54,651 nt of DNA from a virus. Its lineage: Duplodnaviria > Caudoviricetes. Numbering within the stretch: position 1 is the stretch's first letter; each line of letters begins with the position of its first letter. The translations under genes and the position numbers were made by a program. Positions 8,530 to 54,400 of the stretch are shown here, in pieces. The stretch is from positions 1 to 54,651 of IMG/VR virus record IMGVR_UViG_3300032240_000649. One strand, written 5' to 3'. The notes under the pieces are model-generated. The model was not told the DNA's origin and searched no databases. It was given only the letters and a program-made list of their open reading frames with translations.

Positions 8530-9612
8530 ATGGGTCAATTCAAACCAATGGTCAAAATGATGACCACAGAGCCTTCAGTTGAACTGAAGCTCAAAAAAGG
8601 TGGCAAGGTAGCCAAGAAGGCCGATGGCGGCATGATGGGTGCTCCTATGGGCGCTTCTGATGGCCTGCCCCCTGCTATGCCTGCCCGTGGTGGCATGATG
8701 GGCGCTGCGGCCCCCATGAAGCCTTCGCTGGCTATGCGTCGTCGCGCAATGAAGGGCTTGCCTGCTGGTGCTGGCCCCGCTGGTCCAGTTGGCGGCGCTG
8801 CTCAAATGCAGCCCCCAATGGGCGCTCCTAGCGGCATGCCTGCTATGAAAAAGGGCGGCAAGGCTGAAGGCGGCAAGATGGACATGGCGCAAGACAAGGC
8901 CATGATCAAGAAGGCCTTCAAGCAGCACGACATGCAAGAGCACAAAGGCGGTAAAGGCACTTCTTTGAAATTGAAGAAGGGCGGCAAGATGATGAAGTTT
9001 GCAACTGGCGGCGCAATCCCCAGCGAAACAACTTCTGGTTCGCCTGCTACAACCATCATGCACCAAGCCAAGCCTGACAACGCTCCAGCAAAAACTGGTG
9101 GCGTCAAGAACGGCAACGGCGGCGGCTTCAAGACGGGCGGCAAGATCAAGAAGATGGCCACTGGTGGCGTCGTCAAAGGTCAAGCTGGCTACGCTACTGG
9201 CGGTGCAATTCCTTCTGAGACCACTTCTGGCAGCTACGCAACCACTGAGATGCATTCGGCCAAACCTGACAATTCACCTGCCAAAACAGGCGGCGTGAAA
9301 GACGGCAATGGCGGTGGCTACAAGCGCGGAGGGTCTGCGTCAAAAAAAGCCTACGCGGCGGGGGGTACTGTTGATTCAGGTCGTCCCGTCGCGATGCCTC
9401 AAGGTCGCAAACCAATCCCCAAACCTGTAGAGATCAACGAACTCGCTGGCACCTACAAGAAGGGCGGAATGGTAGCTCCCGGCAATCGTAAATTGCAGGC
9501 AATCTCCGATAAAGAGAACGCGCCTGCTATGCGTGCAGCCAAAGCAATGAGCAACGAAAAGTACGGCCCAGCCAGTACGATGAAGCTCAAAAGAGGCGGC
9601 ATGGCTTGTTGA
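8530..9612 (+). CDS. Basic low-complexity protein with many xxGG motifs and an internal duplication
   Basis: 360 aa, rich in K/G/M/A. The ATGGAIPSETTSGS...AKPDNxPAKTGGVKxGNGGG unit occurs twice. AGGAGG RBS. Confidence 0.85.
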   Translation: MGQFKPMVKMMTTEPSVELKLKKGGKVAKKADGGMMGAPMGASDGLPPAMPARGGMMGAAAPMKPSLAMRRRAMKGLPAGAGPAGPVGGAAQMQPPMGAPSGMPAMKKGGKAEGGKMDMAQDKAMIKKAFKQHDMQEHKGGKGTSLKLKKGGKMMKFATGGAIPSETTSGSPATTIMHQAKPDNAPAKTGGVKNGNGGGFKTGGKIKKMATGGVVKGQAGYATGGAIPSETTSGSYATTEMHSAKPDNSPAKTGGVKDGNGGGYKRGGSASKKAYAAGGTVDSGRPVAMPQGRKPIPKPVEINELAGTYKKGGMVAPGNRKLQAISDKENAPAMRAAKAMSNEKYGPASTMKLKRGGMAC

Positions 9613-9616
9613 AAAC

Positions 9617-9642
9617 GAGTGGGGGCTTCGGCCCCCGCTTTT
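9617..9642 (+). terminator. Rho-independent terminator
   Basis: GTGGGGGC-TTCG-GCCCCCGC followed by TTTT. Confidence 0.8.
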
Positions 9643-9656
9643 AATTGGAGAAAAAT

Positions 9657-10076: not shown

Positions 10077-10078
10077 TC

Positions 10079-10600
10079 ATGCCAAGCAAGTCACCAGCCC
10101 AACACAAATTGATGGAGGCGGTTGCGCATAATCCTGCGTTCGCCAAGAAGGTTGGCATCCCCTCAAAGGTCGGCAAAGACTTTGCCAAGGCCGACGAGGG
10201 CAAGAAGTTCAAAGGAGGCGGACTCTATGACAACATCAATGCAAAACGCGAAAGAATCGCTGAAGGCTCTGGTGAGCGCATGCGCAAGCCGGGCAGCAAA
10301 GGTGCTCCAACGGCTGAAGCTTTTCGTGAGTCAGCTAAGACAGCCAAAATGAAAGACGGCGGCCCCAGTTTGGCCATCGGTCGTGGTGAAAAATTACCTG
10401 CCGAAAAAGGCGCTGGCCTGACCAAAAAAGGTCGCGAGAAGTACAATAGAGAAACAGGGTCCCACTTAAAGGCACCGCAGCCTGAAGGTGGCTCACGACG
10501 CGATTCGTTTTGCGCTCGCATGGGTCCGGTTGCAGAAAAAAGCGACGAGGGGAGCCGTGCTAGAGCCTCGATGAAGCGTTGGAATTGTCCGGGGTGGTGA
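10079..10600 (+). CDS. Basic three-module protein; C-terminal module resembles DUF6321-type phage proteins
   Basis: Modules separated by FKGGG and MKDGG; C-terminal AGLTKKGREKYN...RRDSFCARM...KRWNC motif. Confidence 0.75.
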   Translation: MPSKSPAQHKLMEAVAHNPAFAKKVGIPSKVGKDFAKADEGKKFKGGGLYDNINAKRERIAEGSGERMRKPGSKGAPTAEAFRESAKTAKMKDGGPSLAIGRGEKLPAEKGAGLTKKGREKYNRETGSHLKAPQPEGGSRRDSFCARMGPVAEKSDEGSRARASMKRWNCPGW

Positions 10601-10601
10601 C

Positions 10602-11663
10602 ATGGCATATTCAGGTTCGGTAGGCACGACCGTAGTAACGGTCCAAACGCTAATAGATCACGGCGCACGGCGCTGTGGGAAGTTGGCCGAGGAGCTGACC
10701 TCCGAGCAAGTCCTGAGCGCCCGCGAGTCGCTGTTCTTCCTGCTCTCAAACCTGATCAACATTGGCATTCAGTATTGGGCCATCGACAAGAAGGTCTATG
10801 GTTTTACGCCTGACCGCGCAACGTATTTCTTGCCCCTTGGTGGCAACGACGTTCTGAACGCGCTGTACCGCTGGATGAACCGCCCAAACGGTGCGTACAC
10901 GTCCTCTGCTGGTGGTACGGTTGGCAATTTGTATGATGGCGATGTCGATACAATCTGCACCCAGAGCACGGCCAACGGCAATTTTTCTGTCAATTACGGT
11001 CCCTCTGACCCCATTTTTATTGGCTCAATTGGCTTTTTGCCTGCTGCCTCTGGCACTTGGTCAATCATCTACGAATACTCGCAAGACAACTCCACATGGC
11101 AGACCCTTGCGGACCTTGGGACCATCACGGTGGTCAACAACGAGTGGGTGTGGACCGATATTGCCAACGGCCAGACCGTGCCGTACTACCGCATTCGCGC
11201 CTACAACGGCACAACACTGAGCTTGCGCGAATGGTACTTGGGCAACAACTCCACTGAAATCACCATGTCGCGCTTGAACCGCGACGATTTCACCAACCTG
11301 CCCAACAAGAATTTCACGGCCAACCAGCCGTTTCAATACTGGTTCAACCGCACGATTCCTCAAAGCGAGATTGTGCTGTGGCCAACGCCTCAAAACGCCT
11401 TCTACCAGATGACCATTTGGTACTCGCGCCAGATCATGGACGTGGGCGATCTGTACGGCGAGCTGGAAGTGCCGCAGCGCTGGTACGAGGCCGTGGTCAT
11501 GATGCTGGCTCACCGCATGAGCTTGGAGCTGCCCGGCGTTGACATGGCCCGCACGCAGTACCTTGAGGGTCAGGCTGAGAAGTACCTTGCTATGGCCGAA
11601 GAGGAAGAGCGCGACAAGTCGCCGATCTACTTCGCACCAAACATCAGCGTCTACACGAGGTGA
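10602..11663 (+). CDS. Head-tail adaptor/tail tubular A-like protein with an inserted discoidin-like domain
   Basis: Helical N- and C-termini and a LWPTPQNAFY motif flank an insert (NLYDGDVDT...YEYSQDNSTW...YYRIRA). Confidence 0.65.
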   Translation: MAYSGSVGTTVVTVQTLIDHGARRCGKLAEELTSEQVLSARESLFFLLSNLINIGIQYWAIDKKVYGFTPDRATYFLPLGGNDVLNALYRWMNRPNGAYTSSAGGTVGNLYDGDVDTICTQSTANGNFSVNYGPSDPIFIGSIGFLPAASGTWSIIYEYSQDNSTWQTLADLGTITVVNNEWVWTDIANGQTVPYYRIRAYNGTTLSLREWYLGNNSTEITMSRLNRDDFTNLPNKNFTANQPFQYWFNRTIPQSEIVLWPTPQNAFYQMTIWYSRQIMDVGDLYGELEVPQRWYEAVVMMLAHRMSLELPGVDMARTQYLEGQAEKYLAMAEEEERDKSPIYFAPNISVYTR

Positions 11664-11666
11664 TCC

Positions 11667-18292: not shown

Positions 18293-18295
18293 AAC

Positions 18296-18613
18296 ATGAC
18301 TACATACAACTGGCAAATTGTTTCAATGCCCTCCTATTCTCAGATTGATGGGCAATCCGATGTGGTGTTTCAGGTGAATTGGTCTTGTTTTGCAGTCGAT
18401 GGAAATTATTCGGCTCAAACAACTGGTTCAGTTCCAGTGACTTATACCGCTGGAACACCTTTTACGCCATACAACCAACTCACACAAGACCAAGTGTGGG
18501 GATGGATTAACCCAAGCATCGACAGGCCAGATGTTGAGGCCAATCTTCAGGCTTTGATTGATGCCCAAAAGAACCCACAAACCGTAACCCCACCCTTACC
18601 TTGGAGCAACTAA
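18296..18613 (+). CDS. Fibre-associated protein (assembly chaperone-like)
   Basis: Directly follows the fibre; FTPYNQLTQDQVWGW...PPLPW. Confidence 0.7.
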   Translation: MTTYNWQIVSMPSYSQIDGQSDVVFQVNWSCFAVDGNYSAQTTGSVPVTYTAGTPFTPYNQLTQDQVWGWINPSIDRPDVEANLQALIDAQKNPQTVTPPLPWSN

Positions 18614-25874: not shown

Positions 25875-26356
25875 ACGCAACAGGCATCCACCCCGTCAGC
25901 TCCAAGGAGCACATGCTCAAGCCCACCGACATTTTTGCGGTGGCTGCGCACGAGTACAAGCAAGGCATTGAAAACTGCACCGCTGCTGCAAAAAAATATC
26001 ACGTCTCGCCTGAGCGTTTGTCGTACTCAATCATGATTCAAGAGTACAGCGATCCACGCTTGATTCGTATTCGCGAAGGCAACACCTTGTTCACGATTGC
26101 AGCGATGCCGCACCGTGTTGGCTATGTCCGCAGCTACAACGGCGACACGGCAGACAACTTTATTGAAAACATGATTGTGTTTAATCAAGCAGCTCGCAAG
26201 ATGGGTTTTGACGTTTTGGTTGCGCACACCTCGCCTGACATTGTTCGGGCGCTAAAGCTCTCGTTAAGAAAGCACAAAATCAAGGGCATCAAATCAAACT
26301 TTGATTCCTCACAAAATATGTTTGCGATCACCACTGGTGAACCAAGGGGTGAATGA
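25871..26356 (+). CDS. Hypothetical protein (possible GNAT-like/T7 gp13-position assembly protein)
   Basis: ATGA coupling; alpha/beta pattern; lies just before the ejection genes. An alternative start at 25913 has AAGGAG. Confidence 0.55.
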   Translation: MNATGIHPVSSKEHMLKPTDIFAVAAHEYKQGIENCTAAAKKYHVSPERLSYSIMIQEYSDPRLIRIREGNTLFTIAAMPHRVGYVRSYNGDTADNFIENMIVFNQAARKMGFDVLVAHTSPDIVRALKLSLRKHKIKGIKSNFDSSQNMFAITTGEPRGE

Positions 26357-29300
26357 TGGGATGGGTAAATAACAACATCATAAAACCTGCCGTCAACTTA
26401 GTTAGCTCCGTTGTTGGCGGCGTAGTCGACCTTGCAAGCAGCGCTTTAAAGACCGTAGGCGATGCAATTGGTAGCGTCGTTAAAACTGTTGGCAAGACCG
26501 TTGAGGCCGTACTAAAAGATCCCCTGCCTACGCTGCTGCAAATCGGTGGATCTTTTATTGGTATACCGCCTTACGTTACTGCTGCGGTGATCACTGCTGC
26601 CAAGGGCGGCAAGCTTGAGGACATTGCCAAATCAGCCGCAATTTCGTATGCCTCGACGCAGATCTTGTCGAACACTGAGATTGGCACAACGATTGGCGAC
26701 ACGACCAAGACTTGGGGCAACGACTTCACCAACAACATGATGAAGACGTTTGACCTGCCGCCCGACACGGCAGTGTCGATTGCCAAATCGGCTACGGCTG
26801 CCTTGAACTCATCTGTGATTGGCGGCATTAACGCTGCCATCAGCGGTAAGTCAATTGCAACCGGCATCACGTCTGGCTTTACGTCCGGCTTGGTGTATTC
26901 ATCAACCGACAGCTTCTTTGACTCGATCAATAAAGACCCTAATTGGGGTTTCAGCGACAAGGCAGTGAGCTTGATGAAGGGCGCAACCAGCACCGCCCTG
27001 AATACATTCATCTCTGGCAAGGGCGACCCCGCTCAGGCCGTTGGAAACTACATTGCTTACGCCGCTTTGAACATGGGTGGCACATCGCTTGCGCAGTCTG
27101 CAAAAGATGCCTACAAACTGTTGACCACTGACACTGAAGCAGCAAAAGCGGCACAAGACAAATACACCACGCTCAAGGCCGACTACGATCAAAAAATTAA
27201 AGACGGCGAAACTTTGCGCACAACCATCAATGATGAGTCTGCTGCATACAAAAAAGTTGTTGACGAGCAATACAACCCATATAAGGAAAAGCTGGACGGA
27301 TTGATTGCCGAAAACACTACGGCTGTTGATGACTTCAACACCAACAAAAAGGCATACGACGACAACAAGTGGGCCTACGACAACTATGCAACCAAAATGA
27401 GTCAGCTTGGTTATGAGGCGTCCGCTAATGAAGACGGTTCTAACACTTATTACAAGCGAGTTGGTGGCCGTTATGAAATGCGAGATGATGGAGAAGGCGG
27501 CCAGTACCGGGCCTATATTCCTGATGGCTCTATAAGAGACGATGAAGGAAACCCAACATGGCGCACGGTTTATGACGCGCCTTCTCAGCAATCCTATGCC
27601 GATGCGGCCAACGCTGCGGCTACAAAAGCCAACGCTGCGGCTGATAAGTACACCAGCACCAAAAATGCGGCAGAAAAACTTGCGGCCGACAACAAAGACA
27701 TGGTTGACGGTCTTGTGGCCTCTGGCAAGTCCATCGATACCAAGATGACCGACTTGCAAAAAATTAAAGACGATGTTGAGAAGCCCAACGCTGACGGCAC
27801 AAACTTGGCTGCCAAAGTCAAAGCCGCGTCTGACGCATATCAGACCAAGTACGACGCATGGGCCAAGACCAAGGAAGCCGCAGATCGCTCTGCCGAGAAC
27901 TACACCAAGGCCTTGGCCGAGGCGGCCACCAGAAACGCCACCATTGACGCGCTGAACACCGGCGCAATCAAAGCCACAAGCAAAGACGCTGACGGCAACT
28001 GGACGCTTTCTAACGGCATGACTTTGACCAGCGATGGCAAGTTTATACAGGACGGCAAGCAGGCCTTTACAAACACCGCAGGCATTCCACAGGCCGTGCT
28101 TGACTTCAAGGCGGCCGACGGAACCAAGGTTGACTTCAATGAGAACGCTGGCCGCGTAATGTCCACCACTGACGTTCAAAGCGTCATGAAGCGCGACTAC
28201 AACCTTGACGTGAGCGAAGACGAAGCCAAGAAGTTTGCAGGCACAACCTACGGCACAACAGATGCCAAGGCGATGAACGACTTCACCAATCAAAAGGTGC
28301 GCGACGCTTACTTCCAAACCGTTGGTGCGCAGCCTACCGATGCTCAAGTCACTCAGATCAGAGCAACTGGTGGTGGCGGTAACGACCTTTTAACCAGCGC
28401 CAAAGAGTTTGCTGTCAACGGCCTCGACCTGCCTGAAGACTACAAGTTCCCCGACACCAACGCCAAAATATCTTTTGGCCAAGCCTATGCCGCAGCCCGT
28501 TCTGCTTACGGCCCAAATGCCACGTTTGAGTGGAACGGCAAAAAGTACACCACCGAAAACCGCGAAGAAAAAATTGTTCGTGACGACACGGCCGCTGCGG
28601 CTGCTGGCAAGTACGACACGCAAGTTTCGTCATATGCCAAGTACAAGATGCTGGACAACCTCAGCAGCCCTGACTTCAATCCGGCGGACTTGACCAAAGG
28701 CGAGATGTCAAAGTTTGTTGACGCATACACAAATGCAAGCCCGCTGCAACGGGCTGCAATGCTCAAGGGTTCTGACAGCTCGACCTACAAAGTCATTGAC
28801 ACAATTTTGAACGAAACGGCTCGTTATAACCCAACGGGTCAAATCAATACCACCTACAAAGGCACGACAACCGGAACTATCTCGGCTTACAACCCCACCG
28901 GCGTTGAGAAAATTCTTGACTCTGTCAGAACCGGCAAAGATGTGCTCAATGCTGGTTTGAACATTGCAACGGCTGACGTGGCAGGTGTTGTCACTCGCGG
29001 CGCACAGTTGCTTCGCGACGCAATAGGTTTGGACAATACGACTGCTGACAAGATCCAGCAAATGTGGAGTGACTCCAAGGACAAGTCCCTCAAAGGCCTT
29101 GCAACCGACAATCAGCGCGTTATTGCAGGCGGTATTGCATCTGGCCTTGAATCGGTTGGTGCGTTTGCTACAAGCGGCCCTGTTGGGGCTTTGATGACCC
29201 TTGGCGCTATTGCCGCCAATAACTCATACCAAGAGGGCGCTACCACTTGGATTGACAACAACGGCAAGGCTTACTCGTCCAAAGATGAGGCTGCACGCGC

Positions 29301-32274
29301 GGCAGGCGTCAGCAATATTCGCCAATTGACGCCAGAAGAGAACATGCAGCGCACGGCTGTCATGACGGCTCTGGAAATTGCTGGTGAAGCCGCAGGCATC
29401 CCGGGTATGACTCGTTTGATGAAGGGCATCCCGCTCACTGGGAACACTGGCCAAATTGTCAACGCCGTCAAAAATTTTGGTGTTGGTTTGGGTAACGAGC
29501 AGGTGTCTGAACTTTTGACCACCACGGCCCAAATGGCTGCCGACAAGTGGCTAAGTTTTGGTTTGGGCAGGGACGCTACTCTGGCTGACTACACCAAGGC
29601 GCTGCAAGATACTGCGCTGGCCACCACAGCGGCTGTGGGCACTGCTGGGTCAATCTCGACCGCAACCCGCAACATGCAGGATCTGAAGAGCTACTCCAAT
29701 CCGTTCTCAACAAACACCGGTCTGGATACAATTTCCCCGACCGTTCCGTCATTGAAGCAGGCGGCCGCAACGCTTGGCCTTAGCGAATCTGATTTTGCAA
29801 CCATCCAGCGCAACGTCACCAACAGCGTGCGTGCTGGCAACGCATACATTGGATCGGCAGAAGACCTTATTTCACAGTCTTTGCAAGACAAAGGCATGTC
29901 GACTGTTAAGGCAGACGCAGTTGCTTCTATTCTTTCGCAAAAGCTTGAGACGGTCGCCGTTACGGACTTCTTGACAGCCAACGGTATTGACCCGGCCAAG
30001 ATCCCTGCGCTGACGCCTTTGATTCAGTCTCAGCTTGACCCCAACATCAACACTGCTGCTGCGGCAAAAAACATTGCGTCGATCTTTGCATCCGCCGGTA
30101 TGGACCCAGCCTTGGCTGGAAAAACCGCAAGCACGTTCTATTCAAACACTGTGGCGGCCCCAACCATCACGCAGGCCGATATTGACTTGTCAAATCAGCT
30201 CATGAAAAACGCCGGGCTTGAGGTTGGCAAGGTTTACATTTCGCCCAAAGGAACTACCACTACCGTCACTTCTACGCCGGGCACGACGGTCACCAACGAT
30301 CAGTTGCAAACCACATTTGGTACAACTGGCACGACTGGCACTACAACGACCACCGGCAACACTGCGGTTGGAACCGGCACTACTACTGGGACCACAACTG
30401 GAACCACTACCGGTGGCACTGCTGGAACCGGAACCACTACGGGTAGTGGCACTACAACCGGCGGAACAACTGGAACAACTACTGGCGGCACTACTGGAAC
30501 TTTTGCAACTACCGGCACTTTGACTGGTGGTGGCACTACGACCTCTACGGGCGGGACAACCGGAACCACAACGACCGGCGGCACTACCGGTACAACCACA
30601 GGTGGTACAACAACTGGCGGCACAACGACAGGCGGTACAACCACCGGCACGACTACTGGCACGACCACTGGCACGACCACTGGTGGGACCACTACGGGCA
30701 CTACCACCGGCGGAACTACGACTGGCACAACGACCACTGGCGGGACAAACACCGGAACAACCACTGGTACAACAACCGGAACGACAACTGGCACCCAGAC
30801 TGGTACTCAGACTGGCACGACTACTGGTACACAAACAGGCACCCAAACAGGAACGCAAACCGGGACACAAACCGGTACGCAGACCGGAACTCAGACCGGA
30901 ACTCAGACTGGAACGCAAACTGGAACCCAGACTGGTACAAACACGACCACTGCAAACACAATAACGCAGCAAAACCTGACTGACCTTCAAACCGCGTTGA
31001 ATACTCGTATTGGTGAATTGATCAGCCAAGGCGTGAATCAGCAAACTGCAATTCAGCAAGCCATCAAAGAAGTTCAAGGTCAAATTACGACCAACAACAC
31101 TGCGGTCAACACCCGCATCAATGATCTGATTGCTACTGGCTTGACTAATCAACAAGCCACCGAGGCTGCAATTAAAGAAACGCAGGGCAAGGTTACGAAC
31201 CTTGGAACGCAACTTGATACGCGCATCAATGACCTTGTTAAGCAAGGCATGACCAATCAAGAGGCAACCAACCAAGCTATTAAAGAAACGCAAAGTCAAG
31301 TCACGCAAACCAAACAAGAGCTGACTACTCAGATTGAAAAAACCAACGCGACGTTCAATCAGCGGGTCAACGAATTAGTTGAGCAAGGCAAGACTTATCA
31401 AGAGGCAACTCAGCAGGCGTTCAAGGAAACAAACCAAAGCATTGCAGACGTTCAGAAAGCGCAAGACGAGGCCAAGAAAGCTCAAGAAGAAGCTGCAAAA
31501 GCCGCACGCGCAAAAGAAGGCCAAGCCAAAACCGCAAGCAACCTTGCTCAGGCCGTGTCTTTGGCTGCTTTGCCAGCCGCTGCTGCTGCTGGAACTGACG
31601 AGACAACACCGTTCAAGAACATTGGTTTAAAAACAACCGGTGAATCTAAATTTGAAGGCCCGCTTGAGCAATACCTCAAGCTGGTGAAAGGAACCAACTA
31701 TGCACAAAAGCCAGCGGAAGCGCAGCAGCAGCAAACTCAACAACAAGTTCAGCAGGGGGCCAACGTGCAACAAGACCTATTGACCCCGCAACCGGAGCAG
31801 CCTGTGTCCGGATCTGACTACTTCAACTATGGCCAGCAAACTGACATTGACAAGCTATTGGCCGGTCAAGTCAATGAGACCAATACCATGCAAGCCAAAC
31901 GCGGCGGGTTGGCTACCCCGCTTTTTGCTGGTGGCGGCACAACCCGCTATGGTCGTTATGCAGGCGGCGGTTTGAACGTGATCAACCATTCTGGCAAAGC
32001 CCGTGTGGACTTCAGAACCGGCGATGCCGTAAGCGGACCCGGCGATGGCCAGTCTGACGACATCCCTGCAATGCTGGCTGACGGTGAATTTGTGTTCCCG
32101 GCTGACGTAGTTTCGGCTTTGGGAAATGGCTCAACAAAGGCCGGAAGCGATAAACTATACGACATGATGCATTCAATTCGGGCGTATCACCGGTCGGCTA
32201 AACCAGAGGACTTGCCGCCACCCGCGAAAAAGTCACCTCTGGATTATTTGAAAACTCGTAAGGCAAGGAGATAA
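26353..32274 (+). CDS. Giant (1973 aa) internal virion/ejection protein
   Basis: Gly/Ala-rich hydrophobic helices, coiled coils, Thr/Gly tract, and C-terminal xxGG motifs plus a GPGDGQSDDIPAMLADGEFV domain. Confidence 0.8.
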   Translation: MMGWVNNNIIKPAVNLVSSVVGGVVDLASSALKTVGDAIGSVVKTVGKTVEAVLKDPLPTLLQIGGSFIGIPPYVTAAVITAAKGGKLEDIAKSAAISYASTQILSNTEIGTTIGDTTKTWGNDFTNNMMKTFDLPPDTAVSIAKSATAALNSSVIGGINAAISGKSIATGITSGFTSGLVYSSTDSFFDSINKDPNWGFSDKAVSLMKGATSTALNTFISGKGDPAQAVGNYIAYAALNMGGTSLAQSAKDAYKLLTTDTEAAKAAQDKYTTLKADYDQKIKDGETLRTTINDESAAYKKVVDEQYNPYKEKLDGLIAENTTAVDDFNTNKKAYDDNKWAYDNYATKMSQLGYEASANEDGSNTYYKRVGGRYEMRDDGEGGQYRAYIPDGSIRDDEGNPTWRTVYDAPSQQSYADAANAAATKANAAADKYTSTKNAAEKLAADNKDMVDGLVASGKSIDTKMTDLQKIKDDVEKPNADGTNLAAKVKAASDAYQTKYDAWAKTKEAADRSAENYTKALAEAATRNATIDALNTGAIKATSKDADGNWTLSNGMTLTSDGKFIQDGKQAFTNTAGIPQAVLDFKAADGTKVDFNENAGRVMSTTDVQSVMKRDYNLDVSEDEAKKFAGTTYGTTDAKAMNDFTNQKVRDAYFQTVGAQPTDAQVTQIRATGGGGNDLLTSAKEFAVNGLDLPEDYKFPDTNAKISFGQAYAAARSAYGPNATFEWNGKKYTTENREEKIVRDDTAAAAAGKYDTQVSSYAKYKMLDNLSSPDFNPADLTKGEMSKFVDAYTNASPLQRAAMLKGSDSSTYKVIDTILNETARYNPTGQINTTYKGTTTGTISAYNPTGVEKILDSVRTGKDVLNAGLNIATADVAGVVTRGAQLLRDAIGLDNTTADKIQQMWSDSKDKSLKGLATDNQRVIAGGIASGLESVGAFATSGPVGALMTLGAIAANNSYQEGATTWIDNNGKAYSSKDEAARAAGVSNIRQLTPEENMQRTAVMTALEIAGEAAGIPGMTRLMKGIPLTGNTGQIVNAVKNFGVGLGNEQVSELLTTTAQMAADKWLSFGLGRDATLADYTKALQDTALATTAAVGTAGSISTATRNMQDLKSYSNPFSTNTGLDTISPTVPSLKQAAATLGLSESDFATIQRNVTNSVRAGNAYIGSAEDLISQSLQDKGMSTVKADAVASILSQKLETVAVTDFLTANGIDPAKIPALTPLIQSQLDPNINTAAAAKNIASIFASAGMDPALAGKTASTFYSNTVAAPTITQADIDLSNQLMKNAGLEVGKVYISPKGTTTTVTSTPGTTVTNDQLQTTFGTTGTTGTTTTTGNTAVGTGTTTGTTTGTTTGGTAGTGTTTGSGTTTGGTTGTTTGGTTGTFATTGTLTGGGTTTSTGGTTGTTTTGGTTGTTTGGTTTGGTTTGGTTTGTTTGTTTGTTTGGTTTGTTTGGTTTGTTTTGGTNTGTTTGTTTGTTTGTQTGTQTGTTTGTQTGTQTGTQTGTQTGTQTGTQTGTQTGTQTGTQTGTNTTTANTITQQNLTDLQTALNTRIGELISQGVNQQTAIQQAIKEVQGQITTNNTAVNTRINDLIATGLTNQQATEAAIKETQGKVTNLGTQLDTRINDLVKQGMTNQEATNQAIKETQSQVTQTKQELTTQIEKTNATFNQRVNELVEQGKTYQEATQQAFKETNQSIADVQKAQDEAKKAQEEAAKAARAKEGQAKTASNLAQAVSLAALPAAAAAGTDETTPFKNIGLKTTGESKFEGPLEQYLKLVKGTNYAQKPAEAQQQQTQQQVQQGANVQQDLLTPQPEQPVSGSDYFNYGQQTDIDKLLAGQVNETNTMQAKRGGLATPLFAGGGTTRYGRYAGGGLNVINHSGKARVDFRTGDAVSGPGDGQSDDIPAMLADGEFVFPADVVSALGNGSTKAGSDKLYDMMHSIRAYHRSAKPEDLPPPAKKSPLDYLKTRKARR
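30313..30950 (+). repeat. Thr/Gly low-complexity coding tract (TTGG, TTTG, TQTG units)
   Basis: Direct reading; 12-bp units with variable third positions. Confidence 0.9.
30990..31450 (+). repeat. Four ~37-44-aa helical repeats (TRINDLxxQGxTNQxATxxAIKE)
   Basis: Visible in the translation. Confidence 0.8.
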
Positions 32275-32276
32275 CC

Positions 32277-33323: not shown

Positions 33324-33324
33324 T

Positions 33325-45980: not shown

Positions 45981-46081
45981 AAAATATTTTGGTTGGAAGT
46001 GTTGACACCGTTTAAGTTGGTGTTAAACTTCCAATCACTGCAATAAGCAGGTAACAGCGAAACGAAAGCGAGATCATTATG
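45965..46081 (+). promoter_or_regulatory. Cassette head 2
   Basis: TAGGGAAAGTACCTAG, AAAATATTTT, TTGACA(46002)-16-TAAACT(46024); spacer nearly identical to head 1. Confidence 0.85.
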
Positions 46082-46843
46082 GAAAAAGCAAACTTCAGCC
46101 AGCTCCTCAAAGACGCCGTCAACCAACCCGGCATCATCAGCAAGTGCTACAGCACGTTCCACGGCTACAGCATCGGCAACCAACTGCTGGCATGGGTGCA
46201 GTGCGTCGAGCGCAACATTCCCCTTGGCCCCATCGCCACCTACAAAAAGTGGTCCGAGCTGGGCCGTCAAGTCACCAAGGGCCAGAAGGCCATCGCGTTG
46301 GTGATGCCCGTTACCATCAACAAAAAAGACGCCGCAGGCGAGAAGACCGGCGACGTGTTCAGCATGTTCGTGCTGCGCAATAACTGGTTTGTGTTGAGCC
46401 AGACCGAAGGCGAGGACTACGTCAACGAGGTGGTCATCCCCGCATGGGACAAGGCCAAGGCGCTGGCCAAGCTGGACATCAGCGAAGTGCGCTTTGACCA
46501 CGCCGACGGCAACTGCCAAGGCTACGCCAGCGGCCGCACCATCGCGGTCAACCCTGTGGCCGTGCTGCCCCACAAAACCCGCTTCCACGAGTTGGCCCAC
46601 GTTGTGCTCGGTCATACCACCGACGAGGTGATGGCCGACAGCGAAGTGACACCCCGCGACATTCGCGAAGTCGAGGCCGAGAGCGTGGCCTACATTCTGT
46701 GCAGCCTGCTGGATCTGCCCGGCCTGCACGAGTCACGCGGCTACATTCAGAACTGGCTGCAAGGCGCAGAGGTCAGCGACAAGTCGGCCCAGCGCATCTT
46801 CAGCGCGGCCAACAAGATCCTCGAAGCTGGCCAAGACGAGTAA
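46079..46843 (+). CDS. ardC: ArdC-like antirestriction protein (ssDNA-binding N-terminal domain plus zincin-like HExxH domain)
   Basis: YSIGNQLL, ATYKKWSELGRQVTKGQKA, FVLSQTEG, FHELAH, REVEAESVAY, SRGYIQNW. Confidence 0.8.
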   Translation: MEKANFSQLLKDAVNQPGIISKCYSTFHGYSIGNQLLAWVQCVERNIPLGPIATYKKWSELGRQVTKGQKAIALVMPVTINKKDAAGEKTGDVFSMFVLRNNWFVLSQTEGEDYVNEVVIPAWDKAKALAKLDISEVRFDHADGNCQGYASGRTIAVNPVAVLPHKTRFHELAHVVLGHTTDEVMADSEVTPRDIREVEAESVAYILCSLLDLPGLHESRGYIQNWLQGAEVSDKSAQRIFSAANKILEAGQDE

Positions 46844-49208: not shown

Positions 49209-49255
49209 CGAATCGGTTACGATAACGGCAAGATCAACGGACGAGGACTACGGTC

Positions 49256-49867: not shown

Positions 49868-51278
49868 GGTCATCGACTTCTTAAAAGACCCCAAGGTTCA
49901 GAAGAGCCTAGACATTGTCGACCCTTTTTACCGCCTTGCATGGGCATGGCGCATGACGTGGCTCAAGAAGCAGCACGACCACCAGACCCTACCACCGGGC
50001 GAGTGGTGGAGCATCTGGCTGCTGCTGGCCGGTCGTGGAGCCGGTAAAACGCGCACAGCGGCCGAGCAAATCGCGTGGTGGGCCTACACCATGCCCGAGA
50101 CCCGTTGGCTCGTTGCAGCCCCTACCAGCGCCGACGTGAAGGCAACCTGCTTTGAGGGTGACTCCGGCCTGCTGAACATCATCCCGGCCCCGCTGGTGGC
50201 CGACTACAACAAGCAGTACCACGAGCTGCGCCTGCACAACGGCAGCCTGATCAAGGGCATCCCGGCGTCCGAGCCTGAGCGCTTCCGGGGGCCGCAGTTC
50301 CATGGGGGCTGGTGCGACGAGCTGGCTGCGTGGGACTACCTGCAAGAGGCGTGGGACCAGATCCAGTTCGGCATGCGACTGGGTAAGCGCACGCGCCTGA
50401 TCTGCACCACCACGCCCAAGCCCAAGGACCTGATCATCGAGCTGATAGGGCGCGAGGGCGACGACGTGGTGATGACCACGGCCTCGACCTACACCAACCT
50501 CGACAACCTGTCCGACAACTTCCGCAAACAGATCTTGTCCTATGAGGGCACGACGCTGGGGCGGCAGGAGATTTACGCCGAGATCATCGACCCTGAAGAG
50601 GGCGGCATCGTCAAGCGCGACATGTTCAAGCTGTGGCCAGCCGGGAAAGAGTTCCCGCGCTTCGAGTACATCCTGCAAAGCTATGACGTGGCCACGTCTG
50701 AGAAGGTCCAGAACGACCCGACGGCCTGCATCACGTTCGGCGTGTTCAAGCCTGTGGACGGTCCGATGTCGGTCATGGTGATCGACTGCTGGCAAGAGCG
50801 CATGCAGTACCCGGACCTGCGCCCCAAGGTCATCGACGAGTATGAGACCGTCTTCGGCGAGGGCAAGGACCGCAAGCGCGTGGACCTGCTGCTGATTGAG
50901 GACAAGAGCGCGGGCATCAGCCTGATCCAAGACCTGCAACGCGCCCACCTGCCCGTGCGTGCTTACAACCCGGGGCGGGCCGACAAGACCCAGCGCCTGA
51001 ACATCGTGTCCAACATCATCGCCCGTGGCCGGGTGTGGATACCCGAGAGCGACAAGCGCAAGGGCTACGTCAAGGACTGGGCCGAGGGCTTCGTGAGCCA
51101 GATCTGCTCGTTCCCCGAGACCACCCACGACGACCTTGTGGACGCCTGCACGCAGGCCCTGCGCTACCTGCGCGACGCTGGCTGGCTGGACATTGACCCG
51201 CCGCCCAATGACGCGTGGGACGAGGATGACTACGCCGACACCGGCCGAGTAAGGAGGGTAAACCCGTATGCAATCTGA
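49860..51278 (+). CDS. terL: Terminase large subunit
   Basis: AGRGAGKT Walker A, WCDE Walker B, TTTP coupling motif, SYDVA...DPTA, HDDLVDACTQAL nuclease motifs. Confidence 0.95.
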   Translation: MAEVIDFLKDPKVQKSLDIVDPFYRLAWAWRMTWLKKQHDHQTLPPGEWWSIWLLLAGRGAGKTRTAAEQIAWWAYTMPETRWLVAAPTSADVKATCFEGDSGLLNIIPAPLVADYNKQYHELRLHNGSLIKGIPASEPERFRGPQFHGGWCDELAAWDYLQEAWDQIQFGMRLGKRTRLICTTTPKPKDLIIELIGREGDDVVMTTASTYTNLDNLSDNFRKQILSYEGTTLGRQEIYAEIIDPEEGGIVKRDMFKLWPAGKEFPRFEYILQSYDVATSEKVQNDPTACITFGVFKPVDGPMSVMVIDCWQERMQYPDLRPKVIDEYETVFGEGKDRKRVDLLLIEDKSAGISLIQDLQRAHLPVRAYNPGRADKTQRLNIVSNIIARGRVWIPESDKRKGYVKDWAEGFVSQICSFPETTHDDLVDACTQALRYLRDAGWLDIDPPPNDAWDEDDYADTGRVRRVNPYAI

Positions 51279-51435
51279 TGAGACCCAAGTGCCACCGGCC
51301 AAGGTGGAGATGTGCGCCAACCGGTTCGAGTTGGTCAGTGGCTGGCAGCAGCCGCTCGACAAGGACTGGGCGCGGCAAATGTTTGAGACGTGGCTGGCGC
51401 AGCGTGATGGACTTGACAAGCCGCAACGATTATGA
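51268..51435 (+). CDS. 55-aa hypothetical protein (MQSDETQVPP...), not in the ORF track
   Basis: Translated by hand; AAGGAGG RBS inside the end of terL. Confidence 0.6.
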   Translation: MQSDETQVPPAKVEMCANRFELVSGWQQPLDKDWARQMFETWLAQRDGLDKPQRL

Positions 51436-51461
51436 TTAAGGGAAAGTGAAAGGACACCACC

Positions 51462-54400
51462 ATGGCTGATGAAATTCGGGCGCTAGACCCAACGATCCGC
51501 GAGCGGCTGTCGTCCGGGCTTCAGCAGGGCATGGAGGGTCTGGGCATGGACCGCTACAAGGCCCGCCAACGAGCGCAGACGGTTATGGGCGGCGAGAGCA
51601 GCAACCTGCCAATGGGCATGGGCATTGCCGACTTCGTGCCCTTCATTGGGACCACCATGGGCGCTGAGGAAGGCGCTCACGATCTGGGCAAGGCCTACGA
51701 CGCGGCCAAGCGCGGCGACTACATCGATGCGGCGGCCAACACGGTCGGGGCTGCGGCAGGGCTGATCCCCGGCGCGGCAGGCACGGTCAAGGCAGGCAAG
51801 GCGGCCATCAAGAAGCTCAAGGCCATGGAGCTGCCCAAGCTAAAGCCAATCGAAACCGATTCGGTTCCCAAGCGCCAGTCATTGAAAGAGTGGCACGCAG
51901 CCGGTGGCGGCATACCGACCAGCCACAAGGACCGGGCGGACGTCTGGCATCAGAAGGTCCAGCGCTTTGCAGCCGGTGGCGAGGTCTACAACACCGTGCC
52001 CGACATGAGCGACGGCGGCGAGATCATCGACGGCCCGGCTTATGCCAAAGGCGGCGCGGTGACCAAGGTAGCCAAGGACGTCATCGAGGGCGTGGTCGAC
52101 GCCGTCAAGCCAATGGTCGACCGCATCAACATGCACTACAAGGACGTGACCAAGCGCATCCCCGAGCTGCAAGAAGGTGCCCAGAAGATCAAAGACGAGG
52201 AGATGACCCGCGCCCAATATGAGAAGCTGGTCAACAAGTACAAGCCCGTCAAGCCCTACGAATTCATTCCCAAGCCCGCGACCCGCGAGGAGGCCGTCAA
52301 CGCCCTGACGTCGGACAAGCGCGACCTGTACGGCACGCCATCGAGCATGCTCAATGCTGGCCATCCCGTGGGCTTGCGCCTTGACATCCCGGCCTACAGC
52401 GACCACGGCGTGTGGGTTCCGGCCATCCACCAGCAGGACGCTGGCTTTGGTGCTGGAGAGCGCATTGGGTACGAGAGCATCGCCTCGGTGCTGGACCCGC
52501 GCTTTGGCATGGTCGAGAAGGGCGCACTGAACATCGCCGCCGGTAAGCCCAAGGCCACCATTGCCACGATCAAGGGCAACTGGAACCCGATGGACCAAGA
52601 GGCCGCACTGGCCCGCGCCCAAGAGTACCTCGATCACCCCGAGTGGGCGCAGGTGGGCATGGACCCCGAGCGCCACAGCTACTTCTACGACCGCCGCACC
52701 ATGCAGCCCGTCGTAGGGGCCGAGGAGGCCATTCAAGTCGGCCCGCTGGTGCTGGCCCGCAAGCCGCAGTACGGCAACAAGAAGGACTACAAGTACGCCG
52801 GTGGTGGCGCGATCAAGCGCATGGCCAAGAGCGCAATCGAGAGCGCAGCCGAGGCCGCTGGCATGAAGGCTCCGGTCACCGCAGCCAAAGACCTGACGAC
52901 CCTGCAAGACTTCCACACGTCACTGGGTGACGAGGTCCGACGCCGCGCCACCGAAGCCAAGAAGCAAATGGACGCCTTCGACTACAAGTACGACAAGGGC
53001 CAGCGCGTGTTCACTGAGGACAGCGCCAAGAAAAACAGAGCGCCTTACGAGATCATTGAGCGCTACCGCCACGGCAACCAACTGATGTGGGAAGGCGAGC
53101 CGTGGAACAGCAAGAAGATCATGGACCCTGAGACGGGCAAGGCCAAGCGCACGCCATACGAGCCGGGCTACCGCGTCCGGGGCGAGATGGGCGAAATGAT
53201 TTTGCCCGAGACCGCCATCAAGGGCGACGTTGAAATGGCCGGTGGCGGTGCAGCCAAGAAGGGCGCAAAGGAAGTCATCGAGGCTGGCGTCAAGGGCGTC
53301 AAGAGGTTGCTGGGCATGGCCGATGAGGCACCCAAGGGCGTCGAGCCTATCGTGGTCCGCACCCCAGAAGAACGGGCCGTGATTGAGAAGTTTGGCCAGA
53401 AGCAAGAGCAAGAGGCCGCTCGACAGAAGAAGGTCGAGAAGATGGCCAGTGAGAGTGCAGGCCAAAGCCCAGAGGCACAAGCGGCAAAGCCCGCCAAGTC
53501 AAAGGGGCCGCGCACCAAGGTCGAGGCAGACACCTACCGCAAGATGGCCGAGAGCCAAGGCGACGAGGCCGTGCTCAAAGCAGCCCGCGCCGGTGAGCAC
53601 CTCAAGCCCACCAACACCGGTTACGTTGGCGCACCCCGCACCGTGACCAGCGGCCAAGGCCTTGGAGCCATGCGCCGTGGCATCGACAAAGACTTTGCCG
53701 ACTCGGTCGAGGCCGTCAAACTGGCAGACCCCGAGCGGCTGGGCACATGGTACGACCGTGCCAAGCAGGGCATCGCCGAGAGCGTCGAGCCGTATCAGCT
53801 CAACCGCGCATTGGAGCAGCACGGCGTCTACTCCGCTGGCGTCAGCCCCGAGTCAGAATTAGGGTTTGCCCTAAAGCATTTGAACAGCCGCGTGGCCGGT
53901 ATTCCCGAGATGGCCTACCGTGGCGCACCGATGCGCACGCTGGATGAGGCTGTAGCTGAGGGCCGCCCGGTCAAAATGGGCTTCAAGATCGGCGAGTACG
54001 CCAACAAGAACGACCCGCGCATTCCCAACGAGGGCCTGTTTGGCGTGAACGACTTCCGCCGCGCCCAAGGTATGGGCTACACCGACCCGCAGGGCAACCC
54101 GTGGAAGGCTGGCGTGTCCGAGACCATGCACCCGTTCATGGACGCCGAGACCGCCTTGCAGGTGGACCGCGCCAACAAAGCCGGGACCGGTGGCCGCACC
54201 GACTGGGCTGGCCCCCACATTCAAGAGGTGCCGTGGGTTTACGGCAAGGGCCAAGACCTGTACAGCCGGGGCAAGAAGGGCCGCTACGGTGGCGACGAGC
54301 TGGAAGGCATCAAATCGGCCCTGCAAGACGCAAACAACACCGCCCGCGACTACATGTACAAGCACGCAGCCACGGCCACGCACGAGGCCGTTCCCGGCGC

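What the first reader, a model, noticed from the sequence alone, without database searches (positions are those of the whole stretch)
8530..53249. Genome-wide [F/Y/M/L]-[A/K]-x-GG motif punctuates four unrelated late proteins: candidate polyprotein-processing or virion-cargo tagging system
Seen: the motif recurs about ten times in 8530..9612 (LKKGG x2, MKKGG, FATGG, FKTGG, MATGG, YATGG, YKRGG, YAAGG, YKKGG, LKRGG). It occurs twice in 10079..10600 (FKGGG, MKDGG), three times near the end of 26353..32274 (AKRGG, FAGGG, YAGGG) and five to six times in the 51462 protein (HAAGG, FAAGG, MSDGG, YAKGG, YAGGG, MAGGG). It sits in linkers between apparent folded modules, and I did not notice it in this linker role in capsid, portal or replication proteins. 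Established: di-glycine sites are cleaved by ubiquitin/SUMO-type and C39 peptidases, and some phages target and cleave internal head proteins at short motifs. Inference: this is a shared cleavage or docking signal that lets arbitrary cargo be strung together, packaged and released. No prohead protease is recognisable, so the reader of the motif is unidentified.
Basis: partly seen in the sequence, partly recalled or inferred. Interest (0 to 1): 0.85.

Follow-up and report, generated by a model that had tools for sequence, protein, structure and literature searches.

The report
Shared Gly-Gly connector in injected proteins
A short five-residue word (bulky hydrophobic, Ala/Lys, any, Gly, Gly) really does mark the joints between modules in four phage proteins that are probably carried in the virus particle and injected with the DNA, and the same word flanks a conserved piece of tape-measure proteins in phage lambda and other phages, but whether it is cut, bound or just a hinge is still open.

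Summary
In this complete 54.6 kb phage genome the strict word [FYML][AK]xGG occurs 11, 2, 2 and 4 times in the four named proteins. It occurs once in one other ORF and in none of the remaining 39 ORFs. In 80 related contigs it stays confined to the same gene families.

It lies at module borders. Homology breakpoints pile up on it. AlphaFold puts it in low-confidence linkers between helical modules.

The four proteins:
- a disordered basic protein;
- a three-module basic protein carrying DUF6321;
- a tape-measure-like ejection protein;
- a hypervariable "polyvalent" protein between terminase and portal, whose positional counterparts carry ART-PolyVal domains.

The same word brackets the conserved "hook" unit of lambda gpH, JBD30 gp46 and actinophage tape measures.

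My reading is a helix-stop plus Gly-Gly hinge used as a universal connector for beads-on-a-string injected proteins. Some copies may serve as maturation cleavage points, but nothing here shows cutting or docking. In lambda one copy stays uncut in the virion. No conserved protease was found. An ArdC-like zincin (46079-46843) is a weak candidate reader.

Known protein classes; the connector itself appears undescribed.

The parts
8530..9612 (+). Basic (pI 10.3), Gly/Lys/Met-rich disordered protein of 360 aa. It has 11 strict motif copies, starting at nt 8590, 8845, 8971, 8998, 9127, 9154, 9190, 9319, 9352, 9454 and 9586. They often come as pairs: phi-K-x-GG, 3-5 residues, phi-A-x-GG.
   Evidence: Motif count and shuffles. 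Codons. pI. The ESM Atlas's own model has pLDDT 0.36. At least 5507 homologous clusters in metagenomes; sampled rows have 10-13 copies each. No Pfam or PHROG family.
10079..10600 (+). Basic three-module protein. The ATG at 10079 is the likely start. Module 1 is a small helical bundle, module 2 a basic helix pair, module 3 is DUF6321. FKGGG (nt 10208-10222) and MKDGG (nt 10349-10363) are the two joints.
   Evidence: PHROG mini-families match residues 3-45, 50-94 and 110-172 separately. Pfam DUF6321 matches at E 1.4e-13. Breakpoint histogram. AlphaFold pLDDT is 79.6 and pTM 0.34, with helices 6-38, 49-61/79-92 and 116-167, and dips at both motifs.
26353..32274 (+). Tape-measure-like ejection protein of 1973 aa. 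It has a hydrophobic N-terminus, coiled-coil stretches, Thr/Gly repeats and a highly conserved C-terminal domain.
   Evidence: Translation. The C-terminal 174 aa have at least 2788 homologues on very different N-termini. tblastn hits tape-measure proteins. Tandem repeats at 30588-30935.
31894..31971 (+). Motif cluster AKRGG, FAGGG, YAGGG just upstream of the hook unit. It is nearly invariant in 50 aligned homologues.
32035..32112 (+). 'Hook' core (G-P-G-D-G-Q-S-D-D-I-P-A-M-L-A-D-G-E-F-V-F-P-A-D-V-V), shared with siphophage tape-measure proteins.
   Evidence: Invariant columns. PDB profile search hits the Douge tape measure 8zdo at E 2.8e-4 (two copies) and JBD30 8rk3. hhalign to lambda gpH gives E 0.0012, probability 19%. 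The monomer model is poor, pLDDT 53.5.
51462..54650 (+). First 1063 residues of the protein between large terminase and portal, at the polyvalent-protein locus. Motif copies at nt 51894 (HAAGG), 51966 (FAAGG), 52005 (MSDGG), 52041 (YAKGG), 52794 (YAGGG) and 53235 (MAGGG). The last three are each followed by a Lys/Ala-rich amphipathic stretch.
   Evidence: Positional counterparts are listed. ART-PolyVal in 4 of 5 counterparts scanned. The window's own copy has no Pfam family.
3..911 (+). C-terminal continuation of the same protein across the assembly's terminal repeat.
   Evidence: 54531-54650 encodes the same 40 residues as 3-122. Read-through without a stop gives 1325 aa.
54531..54650 (.). 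Direct terminal repeat of the record, identical to 3-122. The window is a complete, circularly closed genome.
46079..46843 (+). ArdC-like protein: an ArdC-N domain plus a zincin-type metallopeptidase half (HELAH at residues 170-174). It holds the only HExxH among the 44 window ORFs scanned. It is a weak candidate for a reader of the motif.
   Evidence: Pfam ArdcN at E 1.9e-11. Peptidase_M78 at 20.4 bits and MPTase-PolyVal at 17.3 bits are both under their cut-offs. HExxH scans. Found in only 1 (L013) of the fetched loci of relatives.

Best explanation
The word phi-[A/K]-x-G-G (phi = F, Y, M or L) is a universal inter-module connector of proteins that this phage group carries in the particle and sends into the cell with its DNA.

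Structurally it is a helix stop followed by a Gly-Gly hinge. The hydrophobic residue and the Ala/Lys close the last helix of one module. The two glycines break the chain. The next module then begins, very often with a Lys/Ala-rich amphipathic helix.

The connector keeps modules independent, like beads on a string. Small basic DNA-side modules, effector enzymes and the tape-measure-type hook can be added, lost or swapped at these points. The chain can also be stored and threaded through the portal and tail channel one module at a time.

Shown: specificity, conservation, position at module borders, linker and helix-end geometry, and presence around the hook of distant tape-measure proteins.

Inferred: that all four proteins are virion-internal and injected; that the hinge serves threading and modular exchange; that some copies double as maturation cleavage points, as in lambda gpH and T5 pb2.
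For: Specificity and enrichment:
- In the window.
- Across 80 related contigs.
- Selection acts at protein level, not nucleotide level.

Module borders:
- 185 matched stretches in 150 homologues of the 10073 protein begin or end at the two motif sites.
- Stand-alone versions of the same modules start with Met-Ala-Lys-Lys or Met-Pro-Lys exactly where fused forms carry the motif.
- 31 of 79 internal module-2 junctions and 9 of 19 module-3 junctions carry the strict word.
- In 58 terminase-portal proteins, 15.1% of 2206 internal BLAST end points lie within 5 residues of a strict motif, against 3.1% for random positions.

Geometry:
- In the AlphaFold model of 10079-10597 (pLDDT 79.6, pTM 0.34), helix 79-92 ends at Met91-Lys92 of MKDGG. 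The next helix after FKGGG starts at residue 49. Confidence dips at both joints.
- In lambda the resolved gpH coiled coil is 818-842, ending at Met842 of MRDGG (PMC10721106, passages).

Kind of proteins:
- ART-PolyVal in 4 of 5 positional counterparts, PcfJ in 3 of 5, and LPD23 in 1 of 5 at 20.7 bits, under its cut-off of 27.
- The tape-measure hook.
- A large polyvalent protein was found by proteomics in phi24B virions (bioRxiv 10.64898/2026.04.10.717836, passages).

Reach beyond this lineage:
- A phi-x-x-GG word lies within about 30 residues upstream of the hook core in 10 of 12 hook-bearing proteins read.
- A second copy lies downstream in lambda, JBD30, Auxilium, Jflix2, Nitrincola and RW.
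Against: - A passive hinge does not normally need a five-residue word kept this strictly in unrelated proteins. Tandem doublets (GG-E-V-H/K-M-x-x-GG) are more than a hinge requires.
- No evidence here shows that any of the four proteins is in the virion. Modules 2 and 3 of the 10073 protein occur as small ORFs in replication regions of T7-like cyanophages.
- Only about 40% of module junctions in distant homologues use the word. Close relatives by portal, such as Caulobacter phage RW and Roseobacter phage CRP-901, lack it except in the tape-measure-like protein. It is a lineage habit, not a requirement.
- The breakpoint statistics count related sequences, so they are not independent events.
- The AlphaFold model rests on 28 sequences.
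Confidence: 0.45

Rival explanations
1. Cleavage code. The word is the recognition site of a protease: phage-encoded, host, or the adjacent hook unit acting on itself. The protease cuts these chains into their modules in the particle or after injection, as a polyprotein is processed. The cut would fall next to the word, for example phi|A-x-G-G.
For: [quoted passage not shown] Both the site and the enzyme are unknown (PMC12617516, passages). A-x-G-G words stand at 707, 711, 718, 734 and 779. A cut before 711 or 734 gives fragments of 14.6 or 12.5 kDa.
- T5 pb2 was mapped as cut after R1127 (PMC10038345, passages). The next residues are A-E-G-G, and A-x-G-G occurs only twice in 1219 residues.
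- Iyer et al. 2017 predict processing of polyvalent proteins by zincin peptidases (PMC5512222, abstract and passages).
- HExxH modules sit inside 9 of 58 counterparts, and the window has an ArdC-like zincin.
- Stand-alone modules begin where the word stands.
- F/Y/M/L looks like a P1 pocket preference (my inference).
Against: - The T5 site is disputed. An earlier report put it after V1148 +/- 1, and R1127 is also a tryptic site (PMC11937520, passage).
- The T5 residue before the cut is Arg, not hydrophobic, and hhalign finds no homology between pb2 and the hook profile.
- Lambda's MRDGG copy is intact in the virion model 818-849.
- Several proteins end 2-7 residues after a copy (window 8530 protein, RW, lambda), where a cut would be pointless.
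- No protease is shared by the motif-bearing phages. The ArdC-like gene is seen in only 1 fetched relative.
- Eleven cuts would reduce the 8530 protein to peptides.
- The T4 gp5 maturation site (position recalled) has no such word.
Confidence: 0.3
2. Docking or cargo tag. The word, together with the amphipathic helix that follows it, is a short linear motif bound by a particle component (portal, capsid interior, scaffold or the hook domain). Any module carrying it is thereby recruited into the procapsid.
For: - Multivalency in a disordered protein: 11 copies.
- Copies at extreme C-termini, as in terminal cargo tags.
- Each module of the terminase-portal proteins starts with the word plus a Lys/Ala-rich helix.
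- Motif residues are somewhat better kept than the rest between the window's 8530 protein and its MW202545.1 counterpart: 34 of 55 against 121 of 305 identical.
Against: - No partner was identified.
- Known cargo tags are single and terminal, not repeated at every joint.
- In siphophage tape measures the word sits in the tail, not the head.
- The AlphaFold model gives no sign of a defined peptide conformation beyond a helix end.
Confidence: 0.13
3. No function of its own: a by-product of Gly/Lys-rich composition, of tandem duplication, or of in-frame ribosome-binding sites and internal starts (Met is the commonest first residue).
For: - The 8530 protein is 18% Gly and contains an internal duplication of about 50 residues.
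- Met is 54% of first positions in the terminase-portal proteins, and doublets place GG three codons before a Met.
Against: - Residue shuffles keep composition yet give 10- to 25-fold fewer copies.
- The word recurs in non-repetitive proteins and in distant phages.
- Motif Gly codons are GGC/GGT, not the GGA-GG of a Shine-Dalgarno site.
- Phe, Tyr and Leu replace Met at the same aligned positions.
Confidence: 0.04

Closest known systems
Polyvalent proteins of phages and conjugative elements (Iyer, Burroughs, Anand, de Souza, Aravind 2017, PMC5512222)
   Same: - A giant, rapidly reshuffled multidomain protein encoded beside the packaging and portal genes.
- Positional counterparts carry ART-PolyVal, PcfJ and LPD23 domains, and some carry zincin-like HExxH modules.
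- Predicted to be packaged, injected and possibly processed.
   Different: - The window's own copy has no Pfam-recognisable domain.
- The paper's main text has no occurrence of 'linker' or 'glycine', so the junction word is not described there.
- Here the same word also joins modules of proteins that are not polyvalent proteins.
C-terminal region of siphophage tape-measure proteins (lambda gpH, JBD30 gp46, Douge gp16, Arthrobacter/Rhodococcus phage TMPs) and their maturation cleavage
   Same: - The same hook unit, flanked by the same word.
- gpH is cut somewhere in the Gly-rich stretch next to the first copy.
- The C-terminal helix ends at a copy.
   Different: - The gene set here is podovirus-like: SU10-type adaptors and no tail-tube or chaperone genes recognised. 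The protein therefore cannot measure a long tail.
- It is far larger, with Thr/Gly repeats.
- No cleavage is shown.
- The sequence matches are weak: E 1e-5 to 1e-12 by tblastn, 2.8e-4 by profile.
Gly-Gly-directed processing of core and internal proteins in adenovirus and African swine fever virus (recalled, not looked up here)
   Same: Basic internal proteins and polyproteins carry a hydrophobic residue a few places before Gly-Gly. They are cut inside the particle by a packaged protease.
   Different: - The spacing differs. Only the phi-x-G-G-G subset would fit the recalled adenain consensus.
- No clan CE cysteine peptidase was found in any scan.
- The terminase-portal protein has no cysteine at all.
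Capsid-targeting sequence of T4 internal proteins and cargo-loading peptides of encapsulins (recalled)
   Same: A short shared peptide on otherwise unrelated cargo of an HK97-fold shell.
   Different: - Those tags are single and terminal. This word is internal and repeated at every joint.
- This word also occurs in tail-resident tape measures.
- No binding partner is known.

Membership tests
Polyvalent proteins (Iyer et al. 2017) | Large protein built of many independent, reshuffled domains | tested here: met
   1325 aa. Homology with counterparts breaks into blocks. 65 complete ORFs at the same locus range from 386 to 2451 aa (two were terminase mis-picks, dropped later), while portals stay 74-91% identical.
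Polyvalent proteins (Iyer et al. 2017) | Carries recognised polyvalent-protein domains (ART-PolyVal, LPD, MPTase-PolyVal, etc.) | tested here: inconclusive
   The window's own protein matches no Pfam family even at E up to 10. Among positional counterparts, ART-PolyVal is in 4 of 5, PcfJ in 3 of 5, and LPD23 in 1 of 5 under its cut-off.
Polyvalent proteins (Iyer et al. 2017) | Encoded among virion and packaging genes, implying delivery with the DNA | tested here: met
   The gene lies between large terminase (49860-51278) and portal (1176-3710). Actual packaging was not tested.
Tape-measure proteins | C-terminal hook unit homologous to that of known tape measures | tested here: met
   tblastn to annotated tape measures at E 1e-5 to 1e-12. 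Profile search against Douge gp16 at E 2.8e-4. phmmer against JBD30 gp46 at E 0.054. hhalign against lambda gpH at E 0.0012, but probability only 19%.
Tape-measure proteins | Fills a long tail tube and sets its length; encoded with tail tube and assembly-chaperone genes | tested here: not met
   PHROG and Pfam scans of the late genes give SU10-type adaptors, tail spike or fibre, and stabilisation-type proteins. They give no tail tube or chaperone. The protein therefore works like a tape measure or ejection protein but is not one in the strict sense.
Tape-measure proteins | Trimeric C-terminus | tested here: inconclusive
   The one complex job (three copies of residues 45-174 of alignment A1) gave no verdict. 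It is reported only under Tried and rejected.
Gly-Gly polyprotein processing by clan CE or C39 peptidases | A cognate cysteine peptidase encoded by the virus | tested here: not met
   No peptidase family of that kind appeared in Pfam, PHROG or NCBIfam scans of the window ORFs I tested. Not every ORF went through every library, and 18296-18613 and 19716-20237 were not scanned with Pfam. The only peptidase-like hit is a zincin.
Gly-Gly polyprotein processing by clan CE or C39 peptidases | Cleavage directly after Gly-Gly | not testable with these tools
   This needs virion mass spectrometry. The only mapped analogue (T5 pb2, disputed) is cut before A-E-G-G, not after GG.
KGG stress-protein repeat (Pfam PF10685; name recalled) | Match to the family model | tested here: not met
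   The Pfam scan of 8530-9612 at E up to 10 returned no family.

The most novel reading that the evidence does not exclude
phi-A-x-G-G is a conserved maturation code for injected virion proteins. The same word would direct the still unexplained cut of lambda gpH into gpH* and gpHC, and of T5 pb2. In this podophage lineage it would be multiplied to dice polyvalent effector chains, a tape-measure-like protein and basic internal proteins into their modules.
Probability: 0.25. Interest if true: 0.8.

Novelty: new variant of a known kind. Interest (0 to 1): 0.6.

Why it matters
- It gives a simple rule for where modules of phage polyvalent and ejection proteins begin and end. That helps to parse the many giant 'hypothetical' proteins of environmental phages: the disordered protein alone has at least 5507 homologous clusters, and the hook domain at least 2788.
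- It suggests how effector cargo is swapped so quickly at one locus while the portal stays nearly constant.
- It links podophage internal proteins to the tape-measure C-terminus.
- It points to a concrete, cheap test in lambda and T5. The site and the enzyme of a tail-protein cleavage, which the 2025 Ur-lambda paper still calls unknown, could be looked for at the A-x-G-G words.

Tried and rejected
In-frame Shine-Dalgarno or internal start. Doublets place GG three codons before a Met. The motif's Gly codons are GGC/GGT like the rest of the genome, so this is rejected.

Mimicry of a co-chaperonin mobile loop. The phage's own GroES-like protein (4018-4458) has no Gly-Gly word in its loop region, so I dropped the idea.

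Search for a head protease:
- The 4455, 5402 and 5967 proteins gave nothing in Pfam, PHROGs (functions unknown), NCBIfam or PDB sequence searches.
- The 5402 family keeps no His/Ser/Cys set across RW and CRP-901 counterparts.
- The PF10118 'metal-dependent hydrolase' (25176-25874) has two E-x-x-H words and looks di-iron-like, not a peptidase.

Monomer fold of the hook domain: pLDDT 53.5, unusable, so no fold search was made.

Complex prediction with three copies of the hook domain: no verdict, score 0.10 against a mark of 0.42. This counts neither for nor against.

T5 pb2 against the hook profile by hhalign: no match. The likeness of its A-E-G-G ... G-E-H-G-T-E-V-V stretch is by eye only.

The T4 gp5 maturation site (position recalled from memory) carries no such word.

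ESM Atlas look-alikes of the 8530 protein and of residues 215-445 of the 51462 protein: only unnamed viral clusters under 0.9.

tblastn of the 8530 protein against 50,697 phage records: no match, with the low-complexity filter on. MW202545.1 nevertheless has a counterpart.

Literature:
- No paper holds 'DUF6321'.
- No relevant paper holds the words YAxGG, FAxGG, YAGGG, YATGG, FATGG or YAKGG. The two hits were unrelated.
- These two searches, plus the word counts in PMC5512222, are the basis for calling the connector undescribed. Subscription journals are not covered.

Supplements are closed.

Full report
What the window is. The record is a complete phage genome of 54,651 bases whose ends repeat: 54531-54650 equals 3-122. 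The gene order, from PHROG, Pfam and NCBIfam scans, is:
- small terminase (49256) and large terminase (49860);
- a very large ORF (51462 to the end, continuing in 3-911);
- portal (1176);
- a GroES-like protein (4018);
- a charged scaffold-like protein (4455);
- two conserved proteins of 180 and 190 aa;
- major capsid protein (6553) and an Ig/fibre-like protein (7504);
- the 8530 protein, then 9645 and 10073;
- an SU10-type adaptor (10602);
- tail and spike genes, a holin, and a second SU10-type adaptor-like protein (20588);
- a PF10118 protein (25176);
- the 1973-aa protein (26353);
- two unknown proteins and a protein with an N-terminal glucosaminidase/SLT domain (35201).

Replication genes follow (DnaB-type helicase, primase zinc ribbon, RusA), together with an ArdC-like protein.

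The nearest records by portal are an uncultured freshwater phage, MW202545.1 (61%), then Caulobacter phage RW (47%), Roseobacter phages CRP-901/902 and Pelagibacter phages HTVC027P/023P.

The observation. For the strict pattern [FYML][AK]xGG, 2000 residue shuffles per ORF gave:
- 11 observed against 0.45 expected in the 8530 protein (never reached);
- 2 against 0.09 in 10073 (p 0.0015);
- 4 against 0.38 in 51462 (p 0.001);
- 2 against 0.51 in 26353 (p 0.078);
- one copy in 32277-33323;
- none in the other 39 of 44 ORFs.

The codons of the two glycines are GGC or GGT in 37 of 42 cases, as elsewhere in the genome. The constraint is therefore on the protein.

The pattern holds across the lineage. 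In 80 viral contigs whose portals are 74-91% identical, orthologues of the 8530 protein carry 431 copies in 45 proteins (16.8 expected). Orthologues of 10073 carry 41 in 38 (2.2 expected). Terminase, portal, GroES-like, capsid, adaptor and other families are at or below expectation. The scaffold-like family has 7 against 1.0. MW202545.1 shows the same distribution. RW and CRP-901 do not, except in their tape-measure-like protein.

The motif marks module borders. PHROG profiles split the 10073 protein into three mini-families (residues 3-45, 50-94, 110-172), with the two motif copies in the gaps.

An exhaustive phmmer search found 3180 relatives. In the best 150, the 185 matched stretches start at query 41-50 (53 times) or 91-100 (36 times) and end at 86-100 (49 times). 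That is at the two motifs.

The same modules occur alone as small genes. These start Met-Ala-Lys-Lys or Met-Pro-Lys exactly where the fused forms have the motif.

Among internal junctions, 31 of 79 before module 2 and 9 of 19 before module 3 carry the strict word. Another class of junction (Leu-Glu-Glu-Lys-Arg-Gly) is also common, so the word is frequent but not obligatory.

An AlphaFold model with 28 homologues (pLDDT 79.6, pTM 0.34) shows three helical units that do not pack on each other. Confidence dips at 41-50 and 81-100. A helix ends at Met91-Lys92 of MKDGG, and another starts right after FKGGG.

The 8530 protein. It is basic (pI 10.3). The Atlas's own model has pLDDT 0.36, suggesting it is probably disordered. 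No Pfam or PHROG family matches. At least 5507 homologous clusters exist in metagenomes, with 10-13 copies each in the rows sampled.

Copies often come in pairs a few residues apart. A 50-residue unit bounded by copies is present in about half of the homologues. Between the window's protein and its MW202545.1 counterpart, 34 of 55 motif residues are identical against 121 of 305 others. That is a modest excess.

The 1973-aa protein. Its last 174 residues are 60-86% identical to at least 2788 proteins with quite different N-termini, from about 165 to over 1000 residues. This stretch holds the AKRGG, FAGGG and YAGGG copies and a near-invariant core ending in Gly-Glu-Phe-Val.

The core matches annotated tape-measure proteins of Arthrobacter, Rhodococcus and Nitrincola phages. 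It also matches the tape measure of mycobacteriophage Douge (PDB 8zdo, E 2.8e-4, two copies), JBD30 gp46 (E 0.054) and lambda gpH (hhalign E 0.0012, probability 19%). The JBD30 paper calls the corresponding region a predicted 'hook' (PMC11445458, passages).

I read twelve hook-bearing proteins: the window, MW202545.1, RW, MW202701.1, lambda, JBD30, Auxilium, Jflix2, Nitrincola 1M3-16, DSL-LC04, HTVC027P and MinM2. In ten of them a phi-x-x-GG word stands within about 30 residues before the core. The exceptions are Auxilium, whose upstream copy lacks the hydrophobic residue, and HTVC027P, where the nearest copy is about 50 residues away.

Lambda, JBD30, Auxilium, Jflix2, Nitrincola and RW have a second copy after the hook. 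The hook is thus one more module bracketed by the connector, in phages as far apart as lambda and actinophages. In none of the solved structures is the hook region itself resolved. My monomer model of it was poor (pLDDT 53.5).

The 51462 protein. With its continuation it has 1325 residues and no Pfam family.

In the 80 related contigs, the ORF just upstream of the portal could be read completely in 65. It ranges from 386 to 2451 residues. Two of the 65 were terminase mis-picks and were dropped later.

These proteins are mosaics. Only short blocks are shared with the window's copy, chiefly residues 100-230, which hold four motif copies.

Pfam finds ART-PolyVal in 4 of the 5 large ones scanned, PcfJ in 3, and LPD23 (under its cut-off) in 1. 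Nine of 58 hold HExxH words, four of them in a typical zincin context. This is the class that Iyer et al. 2017 named polyvalent proteins and predicted to be packaged, injected and processed (PMC5512222, abstract and passages). A 2811-residue polyvalent protein has since been found by proteomics in phi24B virions (bioRxiv 10.64898/2026.04.10.717836, passages).

In the 58 distinct proteins the strict word occurs 190 times against 19.4 in shuffles. 15.1% of 2206 internal BLAST end points lie within 5 residues of a copy, against 3.1% for random positions. These end points come from related sequences and are not independent.

The extended logo is GG-Glu-Val-His/Lys-Met-Ala-x-Gly-Gly-x-Val-Lys, followed by a Lys/Ala-rich stretch. 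Met (54%), Tyr (23%) and Phe (15%) occupy the first place.

What it does. Two literature anchors bear on this.

First, in lambda the resolved C-terminal coiled coil of gpH is 818-842, and the model runs to 849 (PMC10721106, passages). Met842 is the first residue of MRDGG. So the word closes a helix, and this copy is not cut in the virion.

[quoted passage not shown] Both site and enzyme are unknown (PMC12617516, passages). A-x-G-G words stand at 707, 711, 718, 734 and 779, and a cut before 711 or 734 would give 14.6 or 12.5 kDa.

For T5 pb2, Linares et al. place the cut after R1127 (PMC10038345, passages). The next four residues are A-E-G-G, one of only two such words in 1219 residues. A later exchange notes an older assignment at V1148 +/- 1 and that R1127 is also a tryptic site (PMC11937520, passage). 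pb2 shows no detectable homology to the hook profile.

I therefore treat the hinge/connector role as shown in outline and cleavage as a live but unproven addition. Docking to a particle component is possible, because the word is regularly followed by an amphipathic helix and often ends a protein. I found no partner, and the one complex job gave no verdict (reported only as tried).

Who could read it. No head protease is recognisable. The window's only HExxH is in an ArdC-like protein (46079-46843). Its ArdC-N domain matches at E 1.9e-11. Its peptidase half matches Peptidase_M78 and MPTase-PolyVal only below their cut-offs. This is the enzyme type Iyer et al. proposed for processing. Among the fetched loci of relatives it appears only in L013. 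Those loci cover at most 10 kb either side of the portal, so its absence elsewhere is not established.

Novelty and limits. The protein classes are known. The shared connector, and its reach from polyvalent proteins through small basic modules to the tape-measure hook, I could not find described. The library lacks most subscription journals, and supplements were closed.

Nothing here shows that any of the four proteins is in the particle. Modules 2 and 3 of the 10073 protein sit in replication regions of T7-like cyanophages. Module 1 heads an annotated 'structural protein' of an E. coli jumbo phage and stands alone in phiKZ-like phages.

Noticed in passing
window 54531-54650 and 3-122: 120-base direct terminal repeat. 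The record is a closed genome, and the ORF at 51462 runs across the ends into 3-911.
   Followed up: yes
L009-L088, ORF upstream of the portal (e.g. L086:2668-10020, L036:4139-9994): The terminase-portal locus is a hot spot of cargo exchange. ORFs range from 386 to 2451 aa among phages with 74-91% identical portals. They carry ART-PolyVal, PcfJ, LPD23-like and zincin-like (HExxH) modules in changing order.
   Followed up: partly
window 46079-46843: ArdC-like protein (ArdC-N plus a zincin half with HELAH) in the replication region. This is an anti-restriction type protein usually discussed for plasmids.
   Followed up: partly
window 25176-25874: PF10118 'predicted metal-dependent hydrolase' (E 8e-38) sits inside the late operon, just before the tape-measure-like gene. 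It has two E-x-x-H words, so it may be a di-iron protein. Its role in a virion gene block is unexplained. The ORF 25745-26356 overlaps it by 130 bases, so one of the two starts is probably wrong.
   Followed up: partly
window 30588-30935: Tandem 12-36-base repeats encode about 270 residues of Thr-Gly-Thr-Gln repeats in the 1973-aa protein.
   Followed up: partly
window 4018-4458: Phage-encoded GroES-like co-chaperonin (Cpn10, E 1.2e-5) with an N-terminal extension of about 25 residues. It is conserved in 77 ORFs of the related loci.
   Followed up: partly
window 10602-11663 and 20588-21223: Two proteins match the SU10 adaptor family: 24.8 bits (under the cut-off) and 87.8 bits. This suggests a duplicated adaptor or nozzle component.
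   Followed up: no
proteins P0050, P0051, P0032, P0074, P0100: The C-terminal hook domain of the 1973-aa protein also exists as apparently complete stand-alone ORFs of 163-184 aa in other metagenomic phages. One cluster is seen on 8 contigs.
   Followed up: no
L006 (MW202701.1) 31242-34226, minus strand: A different phage type places a 994-aa protein right after its portal. The protein combines the domain shared with window 51462 residues 230-453, a hook unit, and a Gly/Ser-rich tail. The hook is therefore not restricted to tape-measure-like proteins.
   Followed up: partly
window 35201-36775: The last protein of the ejection block has an N-terminal glucosaminidase/SLT-type muralytic domain. 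This resembles the lytic domain of podophage internal proteins.
   Followed up: no
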